Below, one piece after another: positions 1 to 57,435 of a stretch of DNA of 64,000 nucleotides. The notes beneath the pieces are model-generated. The model did no database searches, had not been told where the DNA came from, and saw only the letters and a program-made list of their open reading frames with translations. Location: positions 3,963 to 67,962 of IMG/VR virus record IMGVR_UViG_3300005844_000002. One strand, 5' to 3'. Positions within the stretch are counted from its first letter, which is position 1. Every line of letters starts with the position of its first letter. The stretch is from a virus. The translations under genes were made by a program, and so were the position numbers.

Positions 1-625
1 CGTTTCGCTTCGCTGCTAAAGATTCTTGATCGCTGGTGGTATGACTGCTTTGCCAGCTCTCTTTAGCCTTTCCCCGATCAAAGAACTATCTCCTCGATCG
101 CGTCATTTACTGCTTAGCTTCCGGAATTGCACCGCCAGCCTAAGCACCGTTGGATGTCCGGACCGCTTGGAGTCGGGAAGCACTGAAGAGCGTATTCTAA
201 TTCGCCTTCCCTGCGACGGTCGCGGCTGTATCACGTCCTAGCCAAACCGCATTTCTTTGTTTTGGGGCTCGCTGCGATCAAGTACCTCTCGGCTCTTCTG
301 AGATCGCTTGTGCTCGTTACCGTCACCGCCTCTGTGTCGCGGTCTACGTTGCAGGGACTTCAAAAAACACGCTCATCAGTGCCGCCCTGCTGTTCACAGC
401 GCGGACACCGTAAACGAAGGCTCTGATTGGGTCCGTCACTGGCGATGCTTCTTTACTAAGTGCGCACCAAGTAAAGTATTGGATATGACGGCAATTTCCC
501 ACTATCGCCGGAAATCCCAGTCAGAGCCTTCGTTTGTCCTATCTCGTAGGCTTCCGGCCTAAGAGCAAGCTTTCTGTGGTTATCCTGGGTTCAGAGTCCC
601 AGGCTTCCGTAGCCGGTGTCCCTCA
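1..625 (-). ncRNA. Large structured ncRNA, GOLLD-like candidate, 3' end runs off the window
   Basis: No credible ORF. Nested stems (plus coordinates): 403-410/614-621, 412-431/516-535 (20 bp, one wobble/mismatch), 433-438/486-491, 451-457/470-476, 180-193/369-382, 209-214/351-356, 111-117/140-146. Stems 15-22/60-67 and 23-32/75-85 cross, forming a pseudoknot. Lies next to a tRNA-like element. Family identity and strand are inferred. Confidence 0.5.
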
Positions 626-629
626 CGTC

Positions 630-759
630 CTGAGTTGAGCAGGCAGGACTTGAACCTGCATGGACCTACTTACCGAACGCCAAGCCTTATGCGCACTATC
701 TCTTGGTTGTGGAGGTCCGCCGTTAATCGCGCGTATAATTCCGCCACTGCTCAACTCAG
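630..759 (-). ncRNA. tRNA-like RNA with a non-canonical anticodon/variable region
   Basis: Minus strand: 13-bp terminal stem (630-642/747-759), D-arm-like TGGCGGAATTATACGC and a perfect T-arm GCAGG-TTCAAGT-CCTGC. The middle has GGACCT/AGGTCC and CCAAG/CTTGG stems in place of an anticodon arm. No encoded CCA. Confidence 0.6.
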
Positions 760-773
760 AAAATGAAAGAACG

Positions 774-905
774 TCTTTACTCTCACAAAGGCTCTCACGA
801 CCAGACTAGGTTAGGCTGTAACGTGCCGACAAAGGTCTGTGCGTTACCACAAATTGTCTTCAGCATAGCTAGCGCTGGTCCTGGGAGCCTTTGTAAAAGT
901 AAAGA
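774..905 (-). ncRNA. Long rod-like hairpin RNA element
   Basis: TCTTTACT/AGTAAAGA, ACAAAGGCTC/GAGCCTTTGT, GACCAG/CTGGTC and GTAACG/CGTTAC pair in register. Two C-A mismatches become G-U on the minus strand (one G-U favours plus). Confidence 0.45.
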
Positions 906-1097
906 ACCGACCTAGTACTAGTAGATCGGTTCTCAGAACTATCACTCGGCTTATTTGAAATTGGGCCGAGAAATTGTGCTATTAATCAATCCGTCTAGTA
1001 CACGGCTGCAAGCGAAATCAAAAGAATCCTAATGAAACGATCAAGCGAAAACTGAAAAATATTTCGACTCTCCTATGAAAATAGCGTCTACTCCCTC

Positions 1098-1436
1098 ATG
1101 AACTTCTTCTGTTGGGACACAGATAGGTTAGCCACGAAAGAAGACATTCACCGTCTAGAGAACCTGTTACGTCAGTTCGAACATTCCATAAACATGAAAG
1201 TATCTGAAATCCCCGCATTCATTTCCTCGGTTAAAGACGAGTTGGTAAAATCCAAAACCGAAATCCTCGACAAGATCGCGGCCCTTGAAGCCGCTACTGC
1301 CGATGCTGAACTCTCTCCGGAAGCTGTTGCTGCCCTTGAAGACCTTAAGGCTACTGCCCAGGGTATTGATGACATCGTCCCTGACATTCCGCCAATCACG
1401 GACTCAGGCCCAAGTGGATCCACCCTGCGCGGCTGA
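1098..1436 (+). CDS. Acidic helical/coiled-coil phage protein
   Basis: 112 aa, heptad pattern, C-terminal AQGIDDIVPD; followed by a terminator hairpin. Confidence 0.7.
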   Translation: MNFFCWDTDRLATKEDIHRLENLLRQFEHSINMKVSEIPAFISSVKDELVKSKTEILDKIAALEAATADAELSPEAVAALEDLKATAQGIDDIVPDIPPITDSGPSGSTLRG

Positions 1437-1443
1437 GCCTGCC

Positions 1444-1484
1444 AAAGAAAAACCCCTGACCGTTATGCGCGGTTCAGGGGTCTT
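1444..1484. terminator. Intrinsic terminator, probably bidirectional (better U-tract on minus)
   Basis: ACCCCTGA...TCAGGGGT stem flanked by an A-run and TCTT, between convergent units. Confidence 0.65.
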
Positions 1485-1490
1485 AGTTAA

Positions 1491-1589
1491 GAGCGGAAGG
1501 ATTTGCACCTCCATTTTGGCAGCGATTCTTATTTCGGATATTGCCAGTTCCGGATTCTCGCTTGGGTATGCACTGGTTCCCGTTCGCCC
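1491..1589 (-). ncRNA. tRNA-like unit with a T-arm-like 3' hairpin
   Basis: GGGCG...GGAGG-TGCAAAT-CCTTC-CGCTC; internal GCGA/TCGC and CGGA/TCCG stems. Confidence 0.35.
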
Positions 1590-1593
1590 AAAG

Positions 1594-1657
1594 TGGTGGG
1601 CCATTTCACGAATCGAACGAGTCAGCGCGTCCGCTGCTAGCACCAGCTAGGTAGCCC
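1594..1657 (-). ncRNA. 64-nt miniature tRNA mimic ending in ACCA
   Basis: GGGCTA/TGGCCC acceptor + ACCA; TAGC-TGGT-GCTA D-like arm; CAGCG-GACG-CGCTG arm with a 4-nt loop; TTCGATT T-loop. Confidence 0.5.
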
Positions 1658-1670
1658 AAAAGAACAAAAG

Positions 1671-1779
1671 TGGTGGCCATTGACGTTACGGCTATACGTC
1701 TCCCAGGAATATTAGGCGGGCGCCGTAGACCCCGCTCAATCCTGTCGCACCCAGTTTCCTGGTAGCTTATTGTCAGGCC
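1671..1779 (-). ncRNA. 109-nt structured RNA ending in ACCA
   Basis: GGCC-TGAC/GTCA-AT-GGCC + ACCA; inner GCTA/TAGC, CCAGGAA/TTCCTGG and GCGGG/CCCGC stems; flanked by the repeated spacer AAAGAACAAAA (1659-1669, 1780-1790). Confidence 0.45.
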
Positions 1780-1963
1780 AAAGAACAAAAATGGATCCGG
1801 TTGCTACGATTAACGCCGACCGGGGCTGGCGTGGTACAAACAAAGGAACAGAGGCTGCGCAGTCATCGTTGCTGAAACCCTAGCGAGCGGCTGGTTATGA
1901 ACAAAAACAGAAGCTCTAAAAACAACTCACGTTAAGCTTGCGCCTCGATCGGCTCAGGTCAAG

Positions 1964-2416
1964 CTAAACCCCGAAGCGCTTCTTCCACGCGCTGGGGACC
2001 CAGCCAATAGTACGCTCGGCCCCTGGCTGAAATCGGAAGTGCCCGGCCTCATCGATACAGGCGAGCGTAACATTGTACGGCTTACCCGCCGGGTCCAAAT
2101 GGCCAATCATGACTGTCTCACCAACCGGCGGTTTCTCCTGGCTCAATAACTTCCACTCGCTTGCTTTAGTTTCAGTGGCCATAATATCCAACGCTGGCTG
2201 CTTCTGCGTGCGTGTCAATTCATCGTGGCTCATCCTTCGGCTATAGCTGACTGCTACGCTCCTAGGGGCCTTCTCGTGCCCGTGGCACACATATCTCGCG
2301 TACATGCCATCCCGACACGGCACATCCAAAGTTGAGATAGTCTCGCCCGCTTTTATCTCAAGCGATTCACGCCTGCCATCCCACTCGCCACCCTGAAAGA
2401 AGATATGGGTTTTCAT
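1964..2416 (-). CDS. Hypothetical protein, DUF551-like C-terminal half
   Basis: WKLLSQEKPPVGETVMI...W pattern; ATGA overlap with the upstream gene. Confidence 0.65.
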   Translation of the reverse strand: MKTHIFFQGGEWDGRRESLEIKAGETISTLDVPCRDGMYARYVCHGHEKAPRSVAVSYSRRMSHDELTRTQKQPALDIMATETKASEWKLLSQEKPPVGETVMIGHLDPAGKPYNVTLACIDEAGHFRFQPGAERTIGWVPSAWKKRFGV

Positions 2417-2739
2417 CGGTAGTCGTAAATCTTGAGGTTATGTTTCTTGGCGCGAGCCGCCATATCGGCGGTTCCTTTGCCTCCCGGAAATAGAACGCAG
2501 GCTTCGGCATACTTCGCCATCTCTTCGTTTCGGATTGGCCCTGCTGCGCGTCCGTGCTTGGTCCAGTTAGCAGGAAAGAGCTTTATGGGAATACCATTGG
2601 TCTCAGCAAAAAGTTCCGCGCATCGATCAGCACCCGTCGCGCCGCCTGAGACTACCTCGGTGATCGAAAGCCTGTGAAGATTTAGGCAATCATCTGGGGT
2701 GAATTCGTAATCGCGGCCACCAGCTATGATAGTTTTCAT
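2413..2739 (-). CDS. SLOG family (DUF2493/YspA-like) nucleotide-binding protein
   Basis: MKTIIAGGRDY, VSGGATGAD, AAGPIRNEEM, FPGGKGTADM motifs; start moved to ATG 2739. Confidence 0.85.
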   Translation of the reverse strand: MKTIIAGGRDYEFTPDDCLNLHRLSITEVVSGGATGADRCAELFAETNGIPIKLFPANWTKHGRAAGPIRNEEMAKYAEACVLFPGGKGTADMAARAKKHNLKIYDYR

Positions 2740-2899
2740 CGGCGATTCAAAACCTCCGCATAGGCGCGCCGCGCAAACACAAGCTGACGATACGCAGACC
2801 CAACGCGCCAAGATTCAACTAGGACCCTTAGCCCGCTTGCTCTGCTGAACCGTTCCCAGGCTGCTAGGTAGTCGTCAATGTAGGGTTGTAGGAATTTAT

Positions 2900-3139
2900 T
2901 CATTGGATTTTTGTAGCTCTGAACTTGTGAACGCCCGAAGATGAATCATACCATATATTAACTCTATATCCCCTGGGAACAAGCTCGTCGGTTAATTGGT
3001 TAACAAGTTCGAAGCATTCTGCATTTGATACGCCATCATCGTATTCGAATTCTATTCGATCGGGCATAAGCGCGGCAAATTTATCGCCTTTAGTCTGGAT
3101 AGCTACGAGTGCTGTTTTTAACTGTTCTGTCGTTGTCAT
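2900..3139 (-). CDS. Hypothetical protein
   Basis: 79 aa, ATGA-coupled in the operon. Confidence 0.6.
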   Translation of the reverse strand: MTTTEQLKTALVAIQTKGDKFAALMPDRIEFEYDDGVSNAECFELVNQLTDELVPRGYRVNIWYDSSSGVHKFRATKIQ

Positions 3140-3729
3140 GATTGCTCCTGTTCTACAATCACTTCTTTTGCCTGTGCTCGTATCTTATTGTTTGACTCTT
3201 CTACTTTGTGCTGGGTTTTCTTCCCCAAATCGGCTATCTTCTTCATGCGTTCTTCTAGCGACATGCCAGCGCCTTCCATCAAGCCTTTAGCGGCAGCACC
3301 TAGCATTTGTCCTGCTAGATTACCGATAGCTGAATGACCTACTGCTGACTCTGGTGCTTCTGTTCCCTTATGCGCGGCTTCAACCATTTCAGATACGAGA
3401 CTCCCGGCCTTCATGAAATCAGCTAACGCCTTAGGCTCAAGCACCAGGTTTGAGCTAAGCATGAAGTCAACGTTCTGTGAGTACGCCTTCATGAGCTTCG
3501 CAGCAAGTAACTGCCTCTCTGCTTTAGCGCTATCCTGATTGATAGGTACGCGGAACTGCATGCCAGACTCAGCGCGGATAGTGAGAGCACCAATGAACTT
3601 CTTTTCCGATTTACGCAGTGATCTCCGCTTAGACTTAACGACTGGCGGCTGAATCGGGGCAAGACTAAGCGACTCCTCTGGTGCGAACGATTGCGCTAAT
3701 GCTTGCTCCTGTGTGATTGGTTGGCTCAT
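3136..3729 (-). CDS. Hypothetical helical protein (possible terminase small subunit)
   Basis: 197 aa, helical and charged, coupled in the operon; function is a guess. Confidence 0.55.
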   Translation of the reverse strand: MSQPITQEQALAQSFAPEESLSLAPIQPPVVKSKRRSLRKSEKKFIGALTIRAESGMQFRVPINQDSAKAERQLLAAKLMKAYSQNVDFMLSSNLVLEPKALADFMKAGSLVSEMVEAAHKGTEAPESAVGHSAIGNLAGQMLGAAAKGLMEGAGMSLEERMKKIADLGKKTQHKVEESNNKIRAQAKEVIVEQEQS

Positions 3730-3947
3730 GAGAATTGGTGTTGTTCGGCAGCGCGCTCTAGAGAGCTATTGATCCGTTGAATTGACTCTAAGTCTCCTCT
3801 TACAAAAAAGTGGTACTCAAACCAGTCTCGATTCATTTGGTACTCGAATTCATAGCCCATAAACCTAAGGCCGTCGAGGTACGTTTTGAACTTCTTGGCT
3901 AACAGCCAGCCAATGACGTAGTGCTGCGCGTAATTTTGTGAGGTCAT
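3726..3947 (-). CDS. Hypothetical protein
   Basis: ATGA overlaps at both ends. Confidence 0.6.
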   Translation of the reverse strand: MTSQNYAQHYVIGWLLAKKFKTYLDGLRFMGYEFEYQMNRDWFEYHFFVRGDLESIQRINSSLERAAEQHQFS

Positions 3948-4138
3948 GATTTTGGTTTAATCGCGTACCGTTCGAATAGGTATCTAACGACTCGGTCTTT
4001 TTCTATTGCGGTCAAGATCTCGGAGCTCCAGGTGTTTTCTATAGCAAGCACCGTCAAATAAATCGTAGCTAGTTCATTATCGCCAAGTCCGTCTGGTATG
4101 GCGAAAGTAATCTGAAGTGGTTTTCGTTCGTCGCTCAT
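3944..4138 (-). CDS. Hypothetical protein
   Basis: Coupled overlaps at both ends. Confidence 0.55.
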   Translation of the reverse strand: MSDERKPLQITFAIPDGLGDNELATIYLTVLAIENTWSSEILTAIEKDRVVRYLFERYAIKPKS

Positions 4139-4578
4139 AATGTAAACTCCCCACGAACAAAACTAGTTCTGATTGTTGCGCCGTTCACGCCAAGCAGGCG
4201 TCCTATGTTCTCATAACAACGTTTGATCGGTAGCTTGGTTTGTTTCTGAAGATCGTGAGCCCTACGTACTACCTCGCGCTTAAGCTCCAAAGGATACTTC
4301 GAATTGTTGGCCTTGCGCATGAGCACAACCTGACCTTGATTTTGCTTCTCAATCTTAGTTACAAAAAGGTGTTTGCGTAGCGACTCTAAACCTACACCCG
4401 TCTCTTCGGACGCAGCTTGGATTCCTATTTCCTTGGCCCTAACTGCGGCTAGGTTGAGAAGCTCCAGGGGATATTTCCTGCGCCGAATGTTAGCGGCGGC
4501 ACGCACATTGGTCTGTGCTAGCTGCCCGAGCTCTGAGTTTGCGGCAACCATGCGTATGCCTGATATGGGTTGGTTCAT
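4135..4578 (-). CDS. Tandem helix-turn-helix DNA-binding protein
   Basis: Two repeats KYPLEL...(AASEETGVGLESLRK / IGRLLGVNGATIR). Confidence 0.7.
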   Translation of the reverse strand: MNQPISGIRMVAANSELGQLAQTNVRAAANIRRRKYPLELLNLAAVRAKEIGIQAASEETGVGLESLRKHLFVTKIEKQNQGQVVLMRKANNSKYPLELKREVVRRAHDLQKQTKLPIKRCYENIGRLLGVNGATIRTSFVRGEFTL

Positions 4579-5024
4579 GATAGTCGTTTAAGGTATTTTG
4601 TGATTGCAGCCATTGCTTCCTCAAGTGAATAGGCTACGAAAACGAAGTAGCCCTGGCCGGAGACTAGATCTAGCCACTCACTTTGAGCATCCGAAACCAT
4701 TCCATTTGGAGCCTTCAATTCGATTGCCATCCCATGCCACTGCGAACGCGGCACAAAAAGTATGTAGTCCGAAACGCCCGCTACTTTTCCCATTCGCTTG
4801 AGCCTAGCTCCACGAATAAAGTCTTGCTTGCTTGTCTTAGATCCTTCGTTCGGCACATGCACCAGCAGCCGAGCGTCGGGCACACCGAATCCTTTGTGCG
4901 CAAAATTGAACCATTTTACCAGAGACTCAGCTATCTGTCCCTCCGGCTGTTTCCTTCGCTGTTGGCGTTTGAACTTAGCACGCCACGCCTTGAGCGCATC
5001 TTCTGGGAGAAACGCGGCATTCAT
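4575..5024 (-). CDS. VRR-NUC domain nuclease (resolvase-like)
   Basis: HVPNEG, GKVAGVSDY, IELKAPNG...SDAQSEW motifs. Confidence 0.85.
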   Translation of the reverse strand: MNAAFLPEDALKAWRAKFKRQQRRKQPEGQIAESLVKWFNFAHKGFGVPDARLLVHVPNEGSKTSKQDFIRGARLKRMGKVAGVSDYILFVPRSQWHGMAIELKAPNGMVSDAQSEWLDLVSGQGYFVFVAYSLEEAMAAITKYLKRLS

Positions 5025-5275
5025 GGTTTGTCCTCGATTAAGATGTCGCACGATATTGGCTGTTCCGGCATACCTAGTCGCATGTGATCACCGAATATTT
5101 GCATTACCTGCCAAAGTTGCATCTTACTAAATCCTTCGCTGTCTTTCTCCAGCTGCCCGGGGGTAATTCCATAGGTGGCGTAAAACTTTTCTCGAATCGA
5201 GTGGCCTAATGGCGTGATCTTAACCTTCACGTTACTGTTTAGGTTGAATGGTCTAAAAACAGATGTAGAGTTCAT
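5021..5275 (-). CDS. Conserved phage hypothetical protein
   Basis: FNLNSNVKVKIT...G, MQLWQVMQIFG motif. Confidence 0.75.
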   Translation of the reverse strand: MNSTSVFRPFNLNSNVKVKITPLGHSIREKFYATYGITPGQLEKDSEGFSKMQLWQVMQIFGDHMRLGMPEQPISCDILIEDKP

Positions 5276-5276
5276 T

Positions 5277-5993
5277 TCAGTAAAGGCGTCGAATGGTCAC
5301 GTTGAATCCGACGAATGTAAGTGCTGACTGTGTGAATACATTTACGCGGATCTTGCCTCCTGCCGCGTAGGTCCCGCGCACAATAGCCTGCATGCCGAAG
5401 TGCACATAAGCGCCACTGCCATATGGGGTCATGAACCAGACTGTTTTATTGTCCTTGTTATCAATTCCGGCGGTCAAGCCTACGCCTACATTTGGAGGTG
5501 GTTGGTCTACTGTTCTTGCGGTAATCAGGATCTCATATACCCCACCTTCTCCTGCCGCGATTAGGTACGTACCGCTCGCGTTATCCCAGTGGTTACCTGC
5601 GTCGTTAACCTTAGTCAAAGGAACGATTGCAAAGTCTGGAAATTGTGCAATTGGCGGGGTGTATGAACCACAGGCCAACTCGGCATACTGCTTACTCAGA
5701 TCAACCGGAGTTGTTGTAGAAGTCGCGGCAGTAACGACCAAGTTAACTGGCCCACTGGTAGCTGAGCCTGCTGCATTGAGAACCGTGGCAGAATATGCTC
5801 CTGTATCGCTAGCCTTAAGTGGAGAGAGTACAAGTGGATTGCTAGTCGCGCCAGCAATTACTGTACCGTCTTTTTTCCAAATAAATTGAAAAGGAGTGGT
5901 TCCTTCTGCCGTGACGGTGAGTGTAGCGGTGGTTTGGCCGAATAGCGCAGCCGCGCCACACAAGAAAAACAGGGGATATGAGTAGGGTCTCAT
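5277..5993 (-). CDS. Secreted Ig-domain protein with a C1q/TNF-like C-terminal domain
   Basis: Hydrophobic signal peptide; I-set Ig motif (FIWKKDGTVIAGAT...DTGAYSATVLNAAGS); beta-rich C-terminus with GVYEI. Confidence 0.75.
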   Translation of the reverse strand: MRPYSYPLFFLCGAAALFGQTTATLTVTAEGTTPFQFIWKKDGTVIAGATSNPLVLSPLKASDTGAYSATVLNAAGSATSGPVNLVVTAATSTTTPVDLSKQYAELACGSYTPPIAQFPDFAIVPLTKVNDAGNHWDNASGTYLIAAGEGGVYEILITARTVDQPPPNVGVGLTAGIDNKDNKTVWFMTPYGSGAYVHFGMQAIVRGTYAAGGKIRVNVFTQSALTFVGFNVTIRRLY

Positions 5994-6073
5994 TTTTTAT
6001 TGATTAGAGCTATCACGAGGATTATTGCGGCGATCCCCATCGCTATTGCTATGGCTGGAAAAACGTAGATCAT
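5990..6073 (-). CDS. 27-aa single-TM peptide (not in the ORF track)
   Basis: MIYVFPAIAIAMGIAAIILVIALINKK, ATGA overlaps at both ends. Confidence 0.6.
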   Translation of the reverse strand: MIYVFPAIAIAMGIAAIILVIALINKK

Positions 6074-6723: not shown

Positions 6724-7463
6724 GTCGCGCCTCCCGTGTCCGCCCTGGCGCGTTCAAGGAAATCGCACATGGCAAAAATATTTTTCCTAAATTTACGGAT
6801 TTCCTCTTCGCCGATGTTATCCAGGAACGCAGGGTAGTGCTTCGATAACTCGGGATGTCTCTCCTCGATTCTCCGAATCCATGTTCCTGCTGAAACGAGG
6901 AGAGAAATTACTTCCTCAAGAGGGACATCCCGCGCTGAGACTTCGCGTTTTATCTGTTGTCCGGCCTTGGCGCGCTCGGCTTCGAGCTCGGTTAGCACTT
7001 GATTACTGAACGTTTTAATATGCCGTTTTTCTAGCTCTTCGATCAGCTCCCGCGCCGAGATTTCGCGCTTGGGCTGGGCCTCCGGAAAAATCGCCTTCAC
7101 TAATTTATCGTAAGCATCTCGCTCTTCTTCGTTCTCCGGAATTGAACCACGCAACGGCTCTCCAAGAAGATCGTTCTTCACGAGGTATTCCATTGCCTTT
7201 TGAGGCAAGTCACTCTGGAACGGCTTTTTATTAAACAACCGGACTAAACGGCAAACCAGTGTTCTCAAATCGTCCACTATCGGCTGAAGGTCGCGCTTGG
7301 GCTGGGCCGGGCACAATTCGGCAATAACCTTGGCACCGGTGTCGAGGAGCTTAACCAATTCCTCTGATGTCTTCGGCGGGTGATCTAGCGTCAGCTCGAT
7401 AATGTCAGCAGCCGCCTCCCGCATCCAGTCCCCCGGCTTAGCTGGCTCTTCGTCTTTGTTCAT
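6720..7463 (-). CDS. Modular Eaa/Ead-like early protein
   Basis: LRTLVCRLVRL...AMEYLVKNDLLGEPLR module; AQPKR linker repeats. Confidence 0.7.
   Translation of the reverse strand: MNKDEEPAKPGDWMREAAADIIELTLDHPPKTSEELVKLLDTGAKVIAELCPAQPKRDLQPIVDDLRTLVCRLVRLFNKKPFQSDLPQKAMEYLVKNDLLGEPLRGSIPENEEERDAYDKLVKAIFPEAQPKREISARELIEELEKRHIKTFSNQVLTELEAERAKAGQQIKREVSARDVPLEEVISLLVSAGTWIRRIEERHPELSKHYPAFLDNIGEEEIRKFRKNIFAMCDFLERARADTGGAT
7063..7308. repeat. 18-bp exact direct repeat at module joints
   Basis: TCGCGCTTGGGCTGGGCC at 7063-7080 and 7291-7308; a second near-repeat at about 6928-6947 and 7048-7067. Confidence 0.85.
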
Positions 7464-8374
7464 GGTTGTGATTGTTTGATGAGTTCTTCGCTGATTTTCA
7501 TGTTGGCGTTAGTTCTGGCAAATGACCCAAACAATCTTAGCGCCGCTTCGTCGTAGGCGCGTGCAGATTTCTCCTTCGTGTCGAAGTAGCCTAGAAACAT
7601 TTGTTTCCCGTTGAATTGTATTCTGGCCAACCATTTTCCACGTTCCTTGTCCCAGCAAGCCCCTTTGAATCCACTAGTGCTATTTTTTTGAATCTTACCG
7701 TTCGCATTGTTTAGAGTACGTGAACACACTCGGAGATTCGATAGACAGTTGTTCTTTTTGTCACCGTCCGCATGATCGATAACCATATCTTTCGTGCCCC
7801 CAAGGAATGCTTCGGCAACTAGGCGATGAATCCGGTAATGTTTTCTATTGGGAAAGTTAACATTAATATACCCTTTAGTGTCTACCCATGGTTTCAGCAT
7901 CTTTCCTTTCAAAAACTGTCTTCTGCCATCTGGGTATTCAATGCATCTATCCAGCGATTTCACCCTGCCATGGTCGCTCACCTGATAGCCCTCAAATCCA
8001 ACCACTGCCCGCCATTCCTCGGCTTTCTCAGCAACGGCCTTCGCGGCTTCGATCTGCTCGCGCAACGGTGAAGGTGTGAGCTTGTGGCGTTGAAGGTAGT
8101 CTAGAGCCGCAACGCGAACTTGCTTATCGGGTGGAAGAAGTGCGCAAAGTCGCATCACCAAAACGACTAGATTTTCAATCTGGAACTTGTCGCCGTCTCG
8201 TTCAGACGGTGGACTCACTCCAACATATGTGATCTGCTTCACGGCTTCTTCGTAGGCGGCTAGGGCTTTTTCAACTCTGCTAAAGACTATCCAGAAAGTA
8301 CAGTAGCCCTTAGATTTTGATAGCTCGCGCACAGCTTCAGCCAGCGCAGCGGCGGGGTCGTTGGGTGTGCTCAT
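7460..8374 (-). CDS. Eaa-like N-terminus fused to a NUMOD4-HNH-AP2 endonuclease
   Basis: EEWRAVVGFEGYQVSDHGRV, HRLVAEAF, DHADGDKKNN, GFKG...LGYFDTKEKSARAYD; start moved to MSTPNDP at 8374. Confidence 0.85.
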   Translation of the reverse strand: MSTPNDPAAALAEAVRELSKSKGYCTFWIVFSRVEKALAAYEEAVKQITYVGVSPPSERDGDKFQIENLVVLVMRLCALLPPDKQVRVAALDYLQRHKLTPSPLREQIEAAKAVAEKAEEWRAVVGFEGYQVSDHGRVKSLDRCIEYPDGRRQFLKGKMLKPWVDTKGYINVNFPNRKHYRIHRLVAEAFLGGTKDMVIDHADGDKKNNCLSNLRVCSRTLNNANGKIQKNSTSGFKGACWDKERGKWLARIQFNGKQMFLGYFDTKEKSARAYDEAALRLFGSFARTNANMKISEELIKQSQP

Positions 8375-8586
8375 GGTTGCTGTGGTAGTTTTGGCAATCG
8401 ATAGGTTCTTGGTGTGCATGTTACCCTGAGCCGAGTTTGCTCGTCGCCCAAATCGACTAGGCCAGCCTGGTCGAAAAGAACGTTTTCCACGCTCGATTTG
8501 AACGCATCCCAATTGGTATCCTCTCCCTTTCGTTCAGCAATTGCGTAGGCTGCTCTCAATAGCATATTAGATTCGTTGGGTTTCAT
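8371..8586 (-). CDS. Hypothetical protein
   Basis: LLRAAYAIAERKGEDTNW motif; coupled. Confidence 0.7.
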   Translation of the reverse strand: MKPNESNMLLRAAYAIAERKGEDTNWDAFKSSVENVLFDQAGLVDLGDEQTRLRVTCTPRTYRLPKLPQQP

Positions 8587-16417: not shown

Positions 16418-16939
16418 TTAAGCTGCTAAGTTTTTGCTTAGCTCTTCTCGGATCCACCTGCGCCAAGTCCGGTTTTTGTTAATGTTTATCACCGTAGAGA
16501 GCCCAACGTTAAACAATTGAGCGATTGTTTTCTTGTTGAGGTCAAGCATGCATAGGGCTTTGATAAGAATCGCAGTATCAACGGTTAGTTTTGTGTTATG
16601 GTTGCGTTCTCCCCATCTGCTTAATCCAGTCTTTACGGCATGAAGTAGGTTTTCCGACGGAGTACACCATTCTAGGTTGTCCGGTCGGTTGTCGTGTTTG
16701 ATCCCGTTCTTATGGTTAACCTGTTCTTTCCGTAGCGGATTCTTATGGAACGCGGCGCAAACAACGCGATGCACTGGTCTGTCCATGTAAGCGGTTATTC
16801 CTAGCCTCAACCTAATGGTGACATATCCGTCATGAGTGAACTGTTGTGGGATTGGTCCAAAGATCTCTTCGTGCTGAATAGTCCCGAGAGTGGACACTAG
16901 ATAGCCTTTGATCCTTGATCTTTTCCAATGCTCTTCCAT
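16418..16939 (-). CDS. HNH endonuclease with a C-terminal HTH
   Basis: VHRVVCAAF, QVNHKNGIKHDNRPDNLEW, IAQLFNVGLSTV. Confidence 0.85.
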   Translation of the reverse strand: MEEHWKRSRIKGYLVSTLGTIQHEEIFGPIPQQFTHDGYVTIRLRLGITAYMDRPVHRVVCAAFHKNPLRKEQVNHKNGIKHDNRPDNLEWCTPSENLLHAVKTGLSRWGERNHNTKLTVDTAILIKALCMLDLNKKTIAQLFNVGLSTVININKNRTWRRWIREELSKNLAA

Positions 16940-55641: not shown

Positions 55642-57435
55642 ATGGCATTCCAATCAACTCACTGGTACCACAGATCACCAGACGGAACAGTAACATCTAG
55701 GTACGACGCGGACCTGCGCGTAGCCCGCAAGGAAAATCTCTATCCATCGGTAACGACCGTAGAGAAACAAATCCGGGCCAACGGCCAGCTAGGCCAATGG
55801 ATCACAAGGGAGACAATCAAGGCATGCTGCGAATATCCCAAGTTCGACTTCGAGGACATGAAGGATTATGTGGCGCGGATCGAGAAAGCTTCCGGTAAGA
55901 TAGCCGAGACTGCCGCCGACTTTGGCACGCGGCTACATGATGCGCTTGAGTGGTATCCGCAGATCCCGATGGACCCGCAGATTCAGCCCTACTTCGACAA
56001 GTACGCTGTATGGCATGAGGCGAATATCCTAGAAACTATCTCGTCTGAAACCATGCTCGCCAATCCCTTGATTGGTGTAGCCGGTAAAATGGACAAGCTC
56101 GTAGTCCACAAGGATCATGGACGAGTTCTTGTAGATTTCAAGGGGTTAGACATGGAAACCGACATACCTACGCCGAGTGGATGGACTAAGATGAAGGATC
56201 TTCAGGTTGGTCATTACGTATATGGCTCTACCGGAAATCCGGTTATGGTTACCGCGAAATCTCAAACGCATCACAGGAAATGCTATAAGATTAAATTCTG
56301 TGATGGTTCATCAATTGTGTGCGATAATGTTCATCTTTGGACGGTTCATCACGGAAGAAGCGGGAAAGAAAATCGAATCACGGTAAACTCAGATCAGCTT
56401 GTTGACTTGGTTGCAAAGAGATCTTCTGGCATACACACGTTCATAAGAAATTCATCTCCTATTTCTGGACCAAACCTTCAGCTTCCGATAGACCCATATT
56501 TTCTTGGTGCTTGGTTGGGTGACGGTACGGCATCAGAACCAAAGATCACGCTTGGCGATAAGAAAAGATTGATAGCAGACTACATAAAACTCCTTGGCTT
56601 CGATGTAAGAGAATATAAGAAAGATCAGTTTTACATCAAAAACCTCCGAGGTGTTCTAGTATCAAATGGACTGTTTGGAAACAAACACGTTCCTCCCATA
56701 TACTTAAGAGCATCTTTTGAACAAAGACTCGAACTTCTACGAGGGCTTATGGACACTGATGGTTCGTGGCACAAAACAAGAAATCACGCGCAATTCGTAA
56801 GTACAGATAAGCACCTGAGAGATTCAGTTTACGAGCTTGTTTGCTCGCTAGGATGGAAGGCGTCAACGCATGAGCATACGGCCACAGGATTCGGCGTTTC
56901 AACACGTGCGTACACTCTGTGCTTCACCCCGTTTGGGCATAATCCATTTAAACTTAACACGTTTAATAGGCCGAAGGCGCAAGCTAGAATTAACGGAACT
57001 GCTAGATGCGGTAAACGATTGATTAAAAAAATAGAACCGGTTGAAAGTGTACCAACGCAGTGCATTCAGGTAGATGCCCACGATTCTCTTTACCTTGCTG
57101 GACGCCAAATGGTTCCTACCCACAACACGCAAAATGTGAAAGCGAAGCCCGCGTTCTATGATTCGTGGGCACGACAATTAGGGTTTTATGCGCAGACCTA
57201 CGCCATGCAATTTAGGTGCGAGGTGCCGCGCATCATGTCCATTGTGCTAGATTCCAATGAGCCAAAAGCACCAATAGCTCATCTGTGGTCTCACGAAGAT
57301 CAGGATAAAGGATGGAGGGAGTTTGTTTGTCAGGCTTATTTGTGGATGATGGATAAAGATCATTGGCCCGCTGGTAAGTGGGATGTGTCCGATGTCCTCA
57401 ACGCGCCTGACTTGGCAAACGACATACCCGTATGA
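55642..57435 (+). CDS. PD-(D/E)XK exonuclease (RecB/Cas4-like) interrupted by an intein
   Basis: YPSVTT, GTRLH, E...AGKMD, VDFK|T, QLGFYA. Confidence 0.85.
   Translation: MAFQSTHWYHRSPDGTVTSRYDADLRVARKENLYPSVTTVEKQIRANGQLGQWITRETIKACCEYPKFDFEDMKDYVARIEKASGKIAETAADFGTRLHDALEWYPQIPMDPQIQPYFDKYAVWHEANILETISSETMLANPLIGVAGKMDKLVVHKDHGRVLVDFKGLDMETDIPTPSGWTKMKDLQVGHYVYGSTGNPVMVTAKSQTHHRKCYKIKFCDGSSIVCDNVHLWTVHHGRSGKENRITVNSDQLVDLVAKRSSGIHTFIRNSSPISGPNLQLPIDPYFLGAWLGDGTASEPKITLGDKKRLIADYIKLLGFDVREYKKDQFYIKNLRGVLVSNGLFGNKHVPPIYLRASFEQRLELLRGLMDTDGSWHKTRNHAQFVSTDKHLRDSVYELVCSLGWKASTHEHTATGFGVSTRAYTLCFTPFGHNPFKLNTFNRPKAQARINGTARCGKRLIKKIEPVESVPTQCIQVDAHDSLYLAGRQMVPTHNTQNVKAKPAFYDSWARQLGFYAQTYAMQFRCEVPRIMSIVLDSNEPKAPIAHLWSHEDQDKGWREFVCQAYLWMMDKDHWPAGKWDVSDVLNAPDLANDIPV
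56143..57126 (+). mobile_element. Class 3 intein with a LAGLIDADG endonuclease (328 aa)
   Basis: Starts GLDMETDIPTPSGW; block B CDNVHLW; LGAWLGDG and LRGLMDTDG; block F TQCIQVD; ends PTHN|T. Confidence 0.9.

What the first reader, a model, noticed from the sequence alone, without database searches (positions are those of the whole stretch)
1491..1962. Tandem array of CCA-ending non-tRNA RNAs separated by a repeated U-rich spacer
Seen on the minus strand after a TTGACC box near 1962: a unit ending GATCCA (1792), spacer TTTTGTTCTTT, a 109-nt unit ending GGCCACCA, the same spacer, a 64-nt mini-cloverleaf ending GGCCCACCA, a unit with a T-arm-like hairpin, then a terminator. This is tRNA-operon grammar (acceptor stem, discriminator, CCA, U-rich spacer), but none of the units has a valid anticodon arm. 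Inference: a processed set of tRNA mimics, possibly aminoacylatable decoys or anti-defence RNAs. With 1-1000 this is the best candidate for an undescribed RNA-only system here.
Basis: partly seen in the sequence, partly recalled or inferred. Interest (0 to 1): 0.85.

Follow-up and report, generated by a model that had tools for sequence, protein, structure and literature searches.

The report
Swappable tRNA-end mimic RNA cassettes
A soil phage with no real tRNA genes carries a short row of small RNA genes that copy only the amino-acid-accepting end of a tRNA, and close relatives carry different sets of these units at the same spot, which suggests a fast-evolving RNA tool kit whose job is still unknown.

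Summary
The window is a complete 68-kb phage with 100-bp terminal repeats and no tRNA genes.

On the minus strand lie:
- a conserved leader module, U1 (1963-1797)
- unit A (1779-1671, ends GGCCACCA)
- unit B (1657-1594, ends GGCCCACCA)
- unit C (1589-1491, T-arm-like hairpin, no CCA)
- a strong terminator (1481-1444)

U-rich spacers separate the units.

Six versions of this locus were recovered from relatives. All keep U1 and a terminator, but the cassettes between them differ:
- none
- C only
- A-B-C
- D-E
- F-D-H
- F-x-G-D-C

Cassette D, seen only in relatives, also ends ACCA followed by CTTT. Its 8-bp terminal helix and inner hairpins show 3 compensatory pair changes.

The first "CCA" (1792) is not conserved and looks like chance. 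ARAGORN and Rfam recognise nothing here. The phage has no Ro/TROVE, CCA-adding enzyme, integrase or RNA ligase gene.

Weak points:
- No RNA data were available.
- Only identical copies of A and B were found.
- Their fold z-scores are weak.

Best reading: a hypervariable array of tRNA acceptor-end mimics matured by host tRNA-processing enzymes. A decoy role is inference. This scan has noted similar arrays before in other phages.

The parts
1957..1962 (-). TTGACC box at the start of the conserved block, directly after the stop codon (1966-1964) of the upstream 150-aa ORF. Possible -35 element, unverified.
   Evidence: sequence. GCTTGACC is invariant in 5 of 5 arrays, and in G001 it follows a different upstream gene. 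The sigma-70 scan found no promoter in 1-3000.
1797..1963 (-). U1: the constant leader module of the locus. It is not a CCA-ending RNA. Function unknown.
   Evidence: Present in all arrays: 97.6, 94.6 and 86.9% identical in L041, L040 and L042 and 76% in G001. No fold signal for its 3' 109 nt (z +1.02).
1797..1824 (-). 28-nt stretch of U1 that is identical in G001, although the rest of U1 is only about 76% identical there. By eye it could form an H-type pseudoknot (CGCC/GGCG crossing CCGGU/ACCGG).
   Evidence: alignments. Exact 21- to 25-nt cores were found only in G001 among viral contigs and in 0 genome contigs. The pseudoknot is my reading of the sequence and was not tested.
1780..1791 (-). 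Spacer 1, TTTTTGTTCTTT. The preceding 'CCA' (1794-1792) is not conserved.
   Evidence: (repeat D3). A contig in run X4 joins 1788 to 1589 inside the T-runs.
1671..1779 (-). Cassette A, 109 nt. It has a 4-bp terminal helix GGCC/GGCC (or 8 bp with a 2-nt bulge), a GAAA-capped hairpin and a long hairpin, and ends A-CCA.
   Evidence: MFE -39.2, z -1.72, 11 of 200 shuffles as good. Absent from G001, L040, L041, L042 and the X4 variant. Only identical copies were found (one X2 contig spans the whole unit, one X3 contig covers 1684-1835, 0 differences in either).
1658..1670 (-). Spacer 2, CTTTTGTTCTTTT. It is a repeat of spacer 1.
   Evidence: D3, 15 nt, 93%; D13, AAAGTGGTGG twice.
1594..1657 (-). 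Cassette B, a 64-nt mini-cloverleaf. Parts: 6-bp acceptor-like helix (1657-1652 with 1603-1598); D-like hairpin CUAGC-UGGU-GCUAG; 5-bp hairpin with a 4-nt GACG loop where the anticodon arm would be; T-loop-like GUUCGAUUC in a weak 4-bp stem; then A-CCA.
   Evidence: MFE -22.8, z -1.20, 24 of 200 shuffles as good. ARAGORN and Rfam negative. Absent from all relatives' arrays. One identical copy in run X2; the X3 contigs do not cover B.
1590..1593 (-). Spacer 3, CTTT. The same CCACCA-CTTT junction follows cassette D in L040, L041 and L042.
   Evidence: motif list.
1491..1589 (-). Cassette C, about 99 nt. It has a 5-bp terminal helix GGGCG/CGCUC abutting a T-arm-like hairpin (GGAGG-UGCAAAU-CCUUC) and no encoded CCA.
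   Evidence: z -0.11. 97 of 100 nt identical in L041. Two of the three differences keep pairing in this model: G2.U to A2-U in the terminal helix, and G.U to G-C in the T-like stem, the latter also seen at 1497 in run X4. RNAalifold prefers a different inner fold.
1444..1481 (-). Intrinsic terminator closing the array. It faces the convergent 112-aa ORF 1098-1436 (+).
   Evidence: z -4.12; I22. 98% identical in G001 and conserved in L040 and L041.

Best explanation
Window 1963-1444 (minus strand) is one small non-coding unit of a lytic-type soil phage. A constant leader module (U1) and a constant intrinsic terminator bracket a hypervariable set of small structured-RNA cassettes. The cassettes are separated by U-runs, and recombination in those U-runs swaps them.

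Cassettes A and B here, and D in relatives, mimic the acceptor end of a tRNA. Each has a 5' G-rich strand paired to the 3' end, then an unpaired A, an encoded CCA and a U-rich trailer. B also keeps a D-loop GG and a T-loop-like GUUCGAUUC, so it is probably tRNA-derived, but its anticodon loop is replaced by a 4-nt cap. C keeps an acceptor/T-arm-like stack without CCA.

Inferred mechanism: the array is transcribed as one precursor. Host RNase P cuts at the 5' end of each terminal helix, and RNase E plus 3' exonucleases trim the U-rich trailers back to CCA. This releases stable RNAs of 60-110 nt that cannot decode but present an authentic tRNA 3' end.

Their most likely use is to occupy proteins that read only that end. 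These would be host factors or immune effectors acting on tRNA 3' ends. That would explain the fast cassette turnover typical of counter-defence loci.

Shown: the anatomy, the cassette modularity, selection on the D structure, and the absence of decodable tRNAs. Inferred: transcription, processing, stability and the decoy role.
For: (1) Anatomy at the stated coordinates, the repeated spacer and the strong terminator.

(2) Six array versions share the same U1 and a terminator (H in L042 is followed by a variant terminator):
- G001/L037: U1-terminator
- X4 contig: U1-C-terminator, joint 1788>1589
- this window: U1-A-B-C
- L040: U1-D-E
- L042: U1-F-D-H
- L041: U1-F-x-G-D-C
Runs X2 and X5 independently hold the L042-like and L040-like forms. 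One X2 contig spans A and B identically, and an X3 contig covers part of A identically.

(3) Turnover is fast relative to point divergence. The adjacent 150-aa gene is 94.5, 89.7 and 90.3% identical in L041, L040 and L042.

(4) Shared cassettes are kept nearly unchanged: C 97 of 100, D(L041 vs L042) 70 of 71, F 82 of 83.

(5) Cassette D ends ...CC-ACCA-CTTT like A and B. Its predicted fold is an 8-bp terminal helix stacked on a 4-bp hairpin plus a long hairpin. It pairs in 62 of 63 cells and has 3 pairs changed on both sides. Of 500 shuffles, 17 reach this, and slid controls give 0-1.

(6) In C, two of three substitutions keep pairing in the acceptor/T-arm model.

(7) Not tRNAs or known RNAs: ARAGORN 0 and Rfam nothing relevant.

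(8) Not attP or a Ro partner: no Phage_integrase, TROVE, PolyA_pol or RNA_ligase match in the complete genome, and the controls did respond.

(9) Grammar density: 7 hits at >=6 bp in 346 kb of other phage DNA, against one per array here.

(10) Established knowledge: in E. coli, RNase E cuts 1-3 nt after each encoded CCA and RNase P makes each 5' end of polycistronic tRNA precursors (PMC2190699, abstract seen in the listing). RNase P also matures the non-tRNA phage RNAs M3 and C4 (PMC11143913, passage read).
Against: - No RNA holder is listed, so transcription and RNA ends are untested.
- The sigma-70 scan finds no promoter.
- A and B have no sequence variants: the only other copies are identical, and exact-pattern scans of viral contigs found none. 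There is therefore no covariation evidence for the two units actually in the window.
- Their fold z-scores are weak (A -1.72, B -1.20, C -0.11).
- A's terminal helix is only 4 bp.
- The single-genome grammar test is not significant.
- The D evidence rests on three sequences from effectively two lineages, and 17 of 500 shuffles reach the observed values.
- High identity of shared cassettes could reflect recent exchange and not selection.
- No known acceptor-end-binding protein or toxin is linked to the locus.
- The host is unknown.
Confidence: 0.45

Rival explanations
1. Relics: the cassettes are functionless debris of tRNA genes and other fragments, shuffled by illegitimate recombination in T-runs between an sRNA (U1) and its terminator, and tolerated because the site is neutral.
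For: The presence/absence pattern includes an empty site (G001) and a C-only form. Cassettes are unrelated to one another in sequence. Fold z-scores for A, B and C are weak. B looks like a tRNA with a deleted anticodon loop. Joints lie in T-run microhomology (3 shared letters).
Against: D keeps its fold through 3 double-sided changes at 77.6% identity. Shared cassettes are 97-99% identical while the neighbouring coding DNA is 90-95% identical. The same ACCA-CTTT ending recurs on three unrelated bodies. No ordinary tRNA lies at this locus in any relative.
Confidence: 0.17
2. Riboregulators of the C4 kind: each cassette is a trans-acting antisense or sponge RNA. It uses an acceptor-like helix plus CCA only as a maturation handle for RNase P, and its loops pair with phage or host mRNAs.
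For: The phage P1/P7 C4 antisense RNA and phage M3 RNA are RNase P substrates (PMC11143913, passage read; details of C4 are recalled, since PMC41593 is not held). B and D are three-way junctions with exposed loops.
Against: No complementarity longer than 12 nt links any unit to the rest of the phage genome, which is about what chance gives. Rfam C4 and other sRNA families do not match. Loops such as GACG are too short to act as seeds. Host targets could not be searched because the host is unknown.
Confidence: 0.13
3. Punctuation: the tRNA-like units serve only as cutting marks that release or stabilise the constant U1 RNA, or other RNAs of the 2-kb RNA island, from a long precursor. This would resemble tRNA punctuation in organelles.
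For: U1 is the conserved element and always lies directly upstream. The units carry RNase P and RNase E type signals (PMC2190699 abstract in the listing).
Against: G001 manages with U1 directly followed by the terminator. One unit would be enough, yet up to five different cassettes occur. D's inner hairpins also covary, which a mere cutting mark would not need.
Confidence: 0.1
4. DNA-level element: the repeated AAAGTGGTGG / AAAGAACAAAAGTGG motifs on the plus strand are recombination or protein-binding sites, and the apparent RNA grammar is incidental.
For: TGGTGG resembles part of the E. coli Chi site (recalled). The motifs sit exactly at cassette joints.
Against: Compensatory changes between the 5' strand and the bases just before ACCA in D argue for RNA (or hairpin) pairing, not a linear site. 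The motif is always oriented with the U-runs and the terminator on the minus strand (CCACCA followed by CTTT occurs only at 1599 and 1676 on the minus strand of the genome).
Confidence: 0.05

Closest known systems
Phage T4 species 1 and 2 RNAs (rnaC, rnaD) at the end of the T4 tRNA cluster
   Same: Small stable non-decoding RNAs encoded in tRNA-operon grammar by a phage, function unknown. This comparison is recalled and is also named in earlier notes of this scan; no call verified it. My searches did not retrieve a paper on them, and PMC2330249 has none of the five search terms tried.
   Different: T4's RNAs accompany eight real tRNAs, whereas this phage has none. Here the units are swappable cassettes between a constant leader and a terminator. 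No sequence comparison was possible.
Non-tRNA phage substrates of RNase P: P1/P7 C4 antisense RNA and phi80 M3 RNA
   Same: Phage small RNAs matured by RNase P through an acceptor-like helix (listed in PMC11143913, passage read).
   Different: No Rfam C4 match. No target complementarity in the phage. These are several unrelated bodies in an array, not one regulator in an immunity operon.
Irregular tRNA polycistrons and 8/4 allo-tRNAs of soil Acidobacteria and phages (Mukai et al., PMC5389517)
   Same: Soil origin. Polycistrons of odd tRNA-shaped RNAs, some charged but not used in translation, some near toxin-antitoxin genes (section 16 read). Cassette D has an 8-bp acceptor helix stacked on a 4-bp stem, the same 8/4 count.
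   Different: Those RNAs keep anticodon arms and named anticodons. A, B and D have none. Supplementary Figure S6 of that paper, which shows the polycistrons, could not be seen.
YrlA-type bacterial and phage Y RNAs (Rfam RF02553) with Rsr/Ro60
   Same: tRNA-like module without decoding function.
   Different: No RF02553 match at E<=10. No TROVE gene in the complete genome. As recalled, YrlA has no encoded CCA.
Ordinary polycistronic tRNA operons
   Same: U-rich leaders and trailers, encoded CCA, a terminator at the end. The processing logic follows PMC2190699 (abstract in the listing).
   Different: No unit has a 7-nt anticodon loop, and no unit is scored as tRNA by ARAGORN or Infernal.

Membership tests
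tRNA (Rfam RF00005 / ARAGORN) | Cloverleaf with a 5-bp anticodon stem and a 7-nt loop; scored by the covariance model or ARAGORN | tested here: not met
   ARAGORN finds 0 genes in the window and genome. At an 80% threshold it gives 41 scattered calls across the genome, which is noise. Rfam shows no tRNA match at E<=10 on 1-3000 or 1440-1970. B's arm has a 4-nt loop.
tRNA (Rfam RF00005 / ARAGORN) | Acceptor helix, discriminator base and 3' CCA | tested here: met
   A has a 4-bp helix and B a 6-bp helix, each followed by A-CCA. D has an 8-bp covarying helix followed by A-CCA. C has 5 bp and no CCA.
tmRNA (one- or two-piece) | tRNA-like domain plus a tag reading frame, detected by ARAGORN or Rfam | tested here: not met
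   none.
YrlA / Y RNA with Ro60 | RF02553 match and a neighbouring or genomic TROVE (Rsr) gene | tested here: not met
   No RF02553 hit. PF05731 has 0 matches in the complete genome, and the control genomes did respond.
C4 antisense RNA (P1/P7 type) | Rfam C4 model match and loops complementary to a target in the same phage | tested here: not met
   No Rfam hit. The longest complementarity to the phage genome is 12 nt, about chance level.
C4 antisense RNA (P1/P7 type) | 5' end made by RNase P | not testable with these tools
   Needs an enzyme assay or RNA-end mapping. No RNA run is listed.
8/4 allo-tRNA / irregular tRNA polycistrons (PMC5389517) | 12-bp acceptor branch split 8/4 or 9/3 | tested here: inconclusive
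   D has 8 + 4 bp stacked without a linker. A and B do not have this split.
8/4 allo-tRNA / irregular tRNA polycistrons (PMC5389517) | Anticodon arm with an assignable anticodon | tested here: not met
attP site carrying a tRNA 3' fragment | Integrase in the phage, and identity to a host tRNA 3' end | tested here: not met
   PF00589 has 0 matches. The genome has direct terminal repeats. Only a tRNA-like 3' half elsewhere in the island (630-759) was looked for in genome contigs, with 0 matches. The cassettes themselves were not compared with host tRNAs.
T4 rnaC / rnaD | Sequence or structure homology to the T4 RNAs | not tested
   No model or sequence of them was obtained. blastn of 1400-2000 against 50,697 phage records found no match.

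The most novel reading that the evidence does not exclude
The locus is an RNA-only counter-defence cassette array. It has a fixed expression frame (U1 leader plus terminator). Phages plug interchangeable tRNA acceptor-end decoys into that frame by recombination in U-runs. Each decoy neutralises a different host immune effector that modifies or cuts tRNA 3' ends. Recalled examples of such effectors are toxSAS/CapRel pyrophosphokinases, MenT/AbiEii nucleotidyltransferases and acceptor-stem RNases. It would work like an integron, but for small RNAs and without an integrase.
Probability: 0.15. Interest if true: 0.85.

Novelty: new variant of a known kind. Interest (0 to 1): 0.55.

Why it matters
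Phage tRNA genes are usually explained by codon usage or by replacing tRNAs that host defences cut. Here a phage without any decoding tRNA keeps only acceptor-end look-alikes, and close relatives exchange them like cassettes.

If the RNAs are made and processed as predicted, they would show that the tRNA 3' end alone is a target worth mimicking. They would also give a direct handle on which host proteins read it, such as processing enzymes, synthetases, elongation factor or immune toxins.

The constant leader/terminator frame with variable inserts offers a simple search key for finding more such arrays in metagenomes. Earlier notes of this scan describe similar CCA-ended mimic arrays in other phages, so this may be a widespread and under-described class. 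In five literature searches I saw no listed paper describing arrays of anticodon-less, CCA-ending RNAs in phages. I saw listings and abstracts only, and supplements were closed.

Tried and rejected
**Known RNA families.** Rfam at gathering score on the whole window gave nothing. Rfam at E<=10 on 1-3000, 1440-1970 and L041:490-1120 gave only chance-level hits and terminator look-alikes.

**Real tRNAs missed by default settings.** ARAGORN at relaxed thresholds gave 41 scattered calls genome-wide, with implausible intron models in the array. Rejected as noise.

**Relatives through neighbouring proteins.** The 150-aa ORF found no relative in viral contigs. The SLOG/YspA-like ORF found 32 loci of unrelated phages with no similarity to the array. 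The portal-size 714-aa ORF gave the one viral relative, G001.

**DNA searches.**
- Phage records: no match for 1-6000 (near), 1400-2000 (distant) or L041:655-1075 (distant).
- Exact-pattern scans of viral contigs: the U1 core hit G001 only. The spacer pattern gave 120+ unspecific hits and was useless. The D, B and A cores gave 0.
- Genome contigs: the U1 core and a tRNA-like 3' half from 630-759 both gave 0. No host clue emerged.

**Expression.** No RNA holder is listed for 1-2500. Only DNA contigs could be laid.

**Antisense targets in the phage.** Nothing beyond chance.

**Partner enzymes.** No TROVE, CCA-adding enzyme, tyrosine integrase or RNA ligase. Pfam and PHROGs on 20 and 10 ORFs gave only SLOG/YspA, VRR-NUC, HNH, LAGLIDADG and DnaB-like helicase.

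**Coding reading.** The ORFs 1606-1788 (-) and 1285-1650 (+) cross cassette joints that differ between relatives. They are rejected as genes.

**Two-piece tmRNA or split tRNA across B+C or D+C.** Rejected, because C also occurs directly after U1.

**Literature.**. Supplements of PMC5389517 could not be seen.
Full report
**Where the window lies.** The window is bases 3963-67962 of a 67,962-bp virus record that is rated complete. The record has 100-bp direct terminal repeats. ARAGORN finds no tRNA or tmRNA in the window or genome. Rfam has no match at gathering score. ORF maps show a chain of small minus-strand genes ending at 1964 (150-aa ORF 1964-2416). They are followed by about 2 kb with no convincing ORF except a convergent 112-aa ORF at 1098-1436 (+), which weakly matches phrog_17872. 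The finding sits at the head of this gene-poor island.

**The observation.**
- TTGACC at 1962-1957, directly after the TAG stop at 1966-1964
- GATCCA ending at 1792
- TTTTTGTTCTTT at 1791-1780
- a 109-nt unit at 1779-1671 ending GGCCACCA
- CTTTTGTTCTTTT at 1670-1658
- a 64-nt unit at 1657-1594 ending GGCCCACCA
- CTTT
- a unit at 1589-1491 with GGAGG-UGCAAAU-CCUUC followed by CGCUC
- a hairpin at 1480-1453 with a U-tract

The two long spacers are a 15-nt repeat at 93% identity. The terminator is the only element with a strong fold signal (z -4.12). The units themselves are unremarkable by this measure: A -1.72, B -1.20, C -0.11, and the 3' part of the first unit +1.02.

A post-hoc grammar test required a T-rich leader, a terminal helix and A-CCA-YTT. 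Within this genome alone it is not significant: 2 sites at >=4 bp against a shuffle mean of 1.26, with 36 of 100 shuffles at >=2. In 346 kb of 32 unrelated phage loci, the grammar at >=6 bp occurs 7 times on both strands, real tRNAs included. Two adjacent hits are therefore unusual, but the single sequence alone would not carry the claim.

**Relatives.** No similar DNA exists in 50,697 phage records. A 714-aa protein led to one viral relative, G001 (94% amino-acid identity, a 49-kb fragment).

Aligning these relatives shows a constant frame and a variable filling. The frame is U1 (GCTTGACC ... AACCGG, window 1963-1797) and a terminator. U1 is 97.6, 94.6 and 86.9% identical in L041, L040 and L042 and 76% identical in G001, where a 28-nt stretch (1824-1797) is unchanged.

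The content between leader and terminator differs:

| Source | Array |
|---|---|
| G001 | U1-terminator, nothing between |
| This window | A-B-C |
| L040 | D-E |
| L042 | F-D-H |
| L041 | F-x-G-D-C |

Laying contigs of four other DNA runs on 1400-2000 added a sixth version, U1-C-terminator (run X4). Its joint runs from 1788 to 1589 with 3 shared letters, inside the T-runs. Runs X5 and X2 independently held the L040-like and L042-like forms. An X2 contig spans A and B identically to this window, and an X3 contig covers part of A identically.

The neighbouring protein gene is 90-95% identical among these phages. Cassette content therefore turns over much faster than point substitutions accumulate.

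The 'CCA' at 1792 reads CTA or ATA in relatives, or is missing. It is chance, and the first unit is the constant leader and not a CCA-ending RNA.

By contrast, the ending CC-ACCA followed by CTTT is shared by three unrelated bodies: A, B and D. On the minus strand of the whole genome, CCACCA followed by CTTT occurs only at these two places.

D is the only CCA cassette with sequence variants: L040 against L041/L042, 77.6% identity. RNAalifold predicts an 8-bp terminal helix stacked directly on a 4-bp hairpin, plus a long hairpin. Of 63 cells, 62 pair. Three pairs change on both sides, including C-G to U-A in the terminal helix next to a G.U to G-C change. Of 500 shuffles, 17 reach the observed values, and sliding the partners gives 0-1 such pairs and 33-51% pairing. 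With three sequences this is modest but positive evidence for an RNA whose 5' end pairs with the bases just before ACCA.

C differs at three positions between the window and L041 (97 of 100 identical). Two of the three keep pairing in the acceptor/T-arm model (G.U to A-U, and G.U to G-C). The second change is also seen in run X4 at 1497. RNAalifold, however, prefers another inner fold for C.

For A and B only identical copies exist, so there is no comparative test of the two CCA units that actually lie in the window.

**What the units look like.**
- **B** reads as a tRNA skeleton:
  - a 6-bp acceptor-like helix
  - a 5-bp hairpin with a UGGU loop (two G's, as in a D-loop)
  - a 5-bp hairpin capped by only four bases (GACG) where the anticodon loop should be
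  - GUUCGAUUC, the T-loop consensus as I recall it, in a weak 4-bp stem
  - then A-CCA
- **A** has a short terminal helix, a GAAA-capped hairpin and a long hairpin.
- **C** has a 5-bp helix abutting a T-arm-like hairpin and lacks CCA.

None is scored as tRNA, tmRNA, YrlA, C4 or a viral tRNA-like structure by Infernal, even at E<=10 on a 531-nt query. The same holds for the array of L041. Apart from the D variants, the modules share only short words.

**What it is not.**
- The complete genome has no tyrosine integrase, and the genome has terminal repeats, so an attP site with tRNA fragments is unlikely.
- It has no TROVE/Ro60, so these are not Y RNAs with their partner.
- It has no CCA-adding enzyme and no RNA ligase.
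- The ORFs crossing the units are broken by the cassette differences.
- No unit has more than 12 nt of complementarity to the rest of the phage.

**Mechanism.** The arrangement matches what bacterial tRNA operons use. RNase E cuts just after each encoded CCA, and RNase P makes each 5' end (PMC2190699, abstract seen in the listing). RNase P also matures non-tRNA phage RNAs such as M3 and C4 (PMC11143913, passage read).

I therefore read the locus as one precursor from which host enzymes release stable RNAs of 60-110 nt. These RNAs carry a genuine tRNA 3' end but cannot decode. Because they lack anticodon loops, they cannot be decoys for anticodon nucleases. They could engage anything that reads only the acceptor end.

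The presence/absence polymorphism among near-identical phages, in an early-gene accessory region, is the pattern expected of counter-defence or host-takeover cargo. The decoy role is inference from this pattern and from recalled knowledge of immune toxins that modify tRNA 3' ends.

The rivals are neutral relics, RNase-P-matured riboregulators, mere processing marks for U1, and a DNA-level element. They are weighed in the Rival explanations section. The D covariation and the recurring ACCA-CTTT ending argue most strongly against relics and DNA sites. The empty G001 site and the multiplicity of cassettes argue against mere punctuation.

**Comparison with the known.** The closest precedents are:
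- the T4 species 1 and 2 RNAs (recalled, and also named by earlier notes of this scan)
- the RNase P substrates C4 and M3
- the irregular tRNA polycistrons and 8/4 allo-tRNAs of soil bacteria and phages (PMC5389517; abstract, passages and section 16 read)
- YrlA

Membership in tRNA, tmRNA, YrlA and C4 was tested and not met. D shares the 8/4 helix count with allo-tRNAs but has no anticodon arm.

The distinguishing points here are a phage with no true tRNA at all, a fixed leader/terminator frame, and cassette swapping. Earlier notes of this scan report CCA-ended tRNA-mimic arrays in other phages. By sequence, none resembles this one.

**Verdict.** This is a new variant of a known kind, of moderate to good interest. 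It is limited by the lack of RNA data and by the absence of variants for A and B.

Noticed in passing
window 630-759 (minus strand): A tRNA-like element with a 13-bp extended terminal helix (CTGAGTTGAGCAG / CTGCTCAACTCAG) and a canonical-looking T-arm (GCAGG-TTCAAGT-CCTGC), but with a long rod in place of a normal anticodon loop. ARAGORN calls its homologue in L042 (2279-2376) 'tRNA-??? anticodon tgca'. Its 24-nt 3' half has no exact match in genome contigs.
   Followed up: partly
window 1-1100 and relatives L040-L042: The whole gene-poor island is mosaic between relatives. For example, the 31-nt-arm hairpin at 774-905 is missing from L041, and the region 743-642 is replaced in L040. Cassette swapping is therefore not confined to 1491-1796.
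   Followed up: partly
window 1797-1824 (minus strand): A 28-nt stretch of the leader U1 is identical in G001, although the surrounding U1 is about 76% identical. By eye it can form an H-type pseudoknot. There is no match in genome contigs for its 21-nt core.
   Followed up: partly
window 1766-1761 and 1655-1650; L041 array: The word GCUACC recurs in four otherwise unrelated cassettes (A, B, G and x). It is partly complementary to GUAGC in the invariant U1 stretch. UGCGAC or GACG also recurs in hairpin loops or junctions of A, B and D. Both may be chance.
   Followed up: no
window 1964-2811: The 150-aa ORF (no family) and the SLOG/YspA-like ORF (PF10686, E 1.1e-10) just upstream of the array are absent from G001, where a 55-aa ORF abuts U1 directly. 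These are accessory genes in the same variable region.
   Followed up: partly
window 7460-8512, 16418-16939, 55642-57435: There are two HNH endonuclease genes, one with NUMOD4 and AP2 domains, and a LAGLIDADG-containing ORF. These are possible homing endonucleases that could promote mosaicism.
   Followed up: no
genome bases 1-3962 (left of the window): Further CCACCA words lie on the minus strand at genome positions about 1587-2191, and few ORFs lie in 1-2100. This part was not examined for RNA genes.
   Followed up: no
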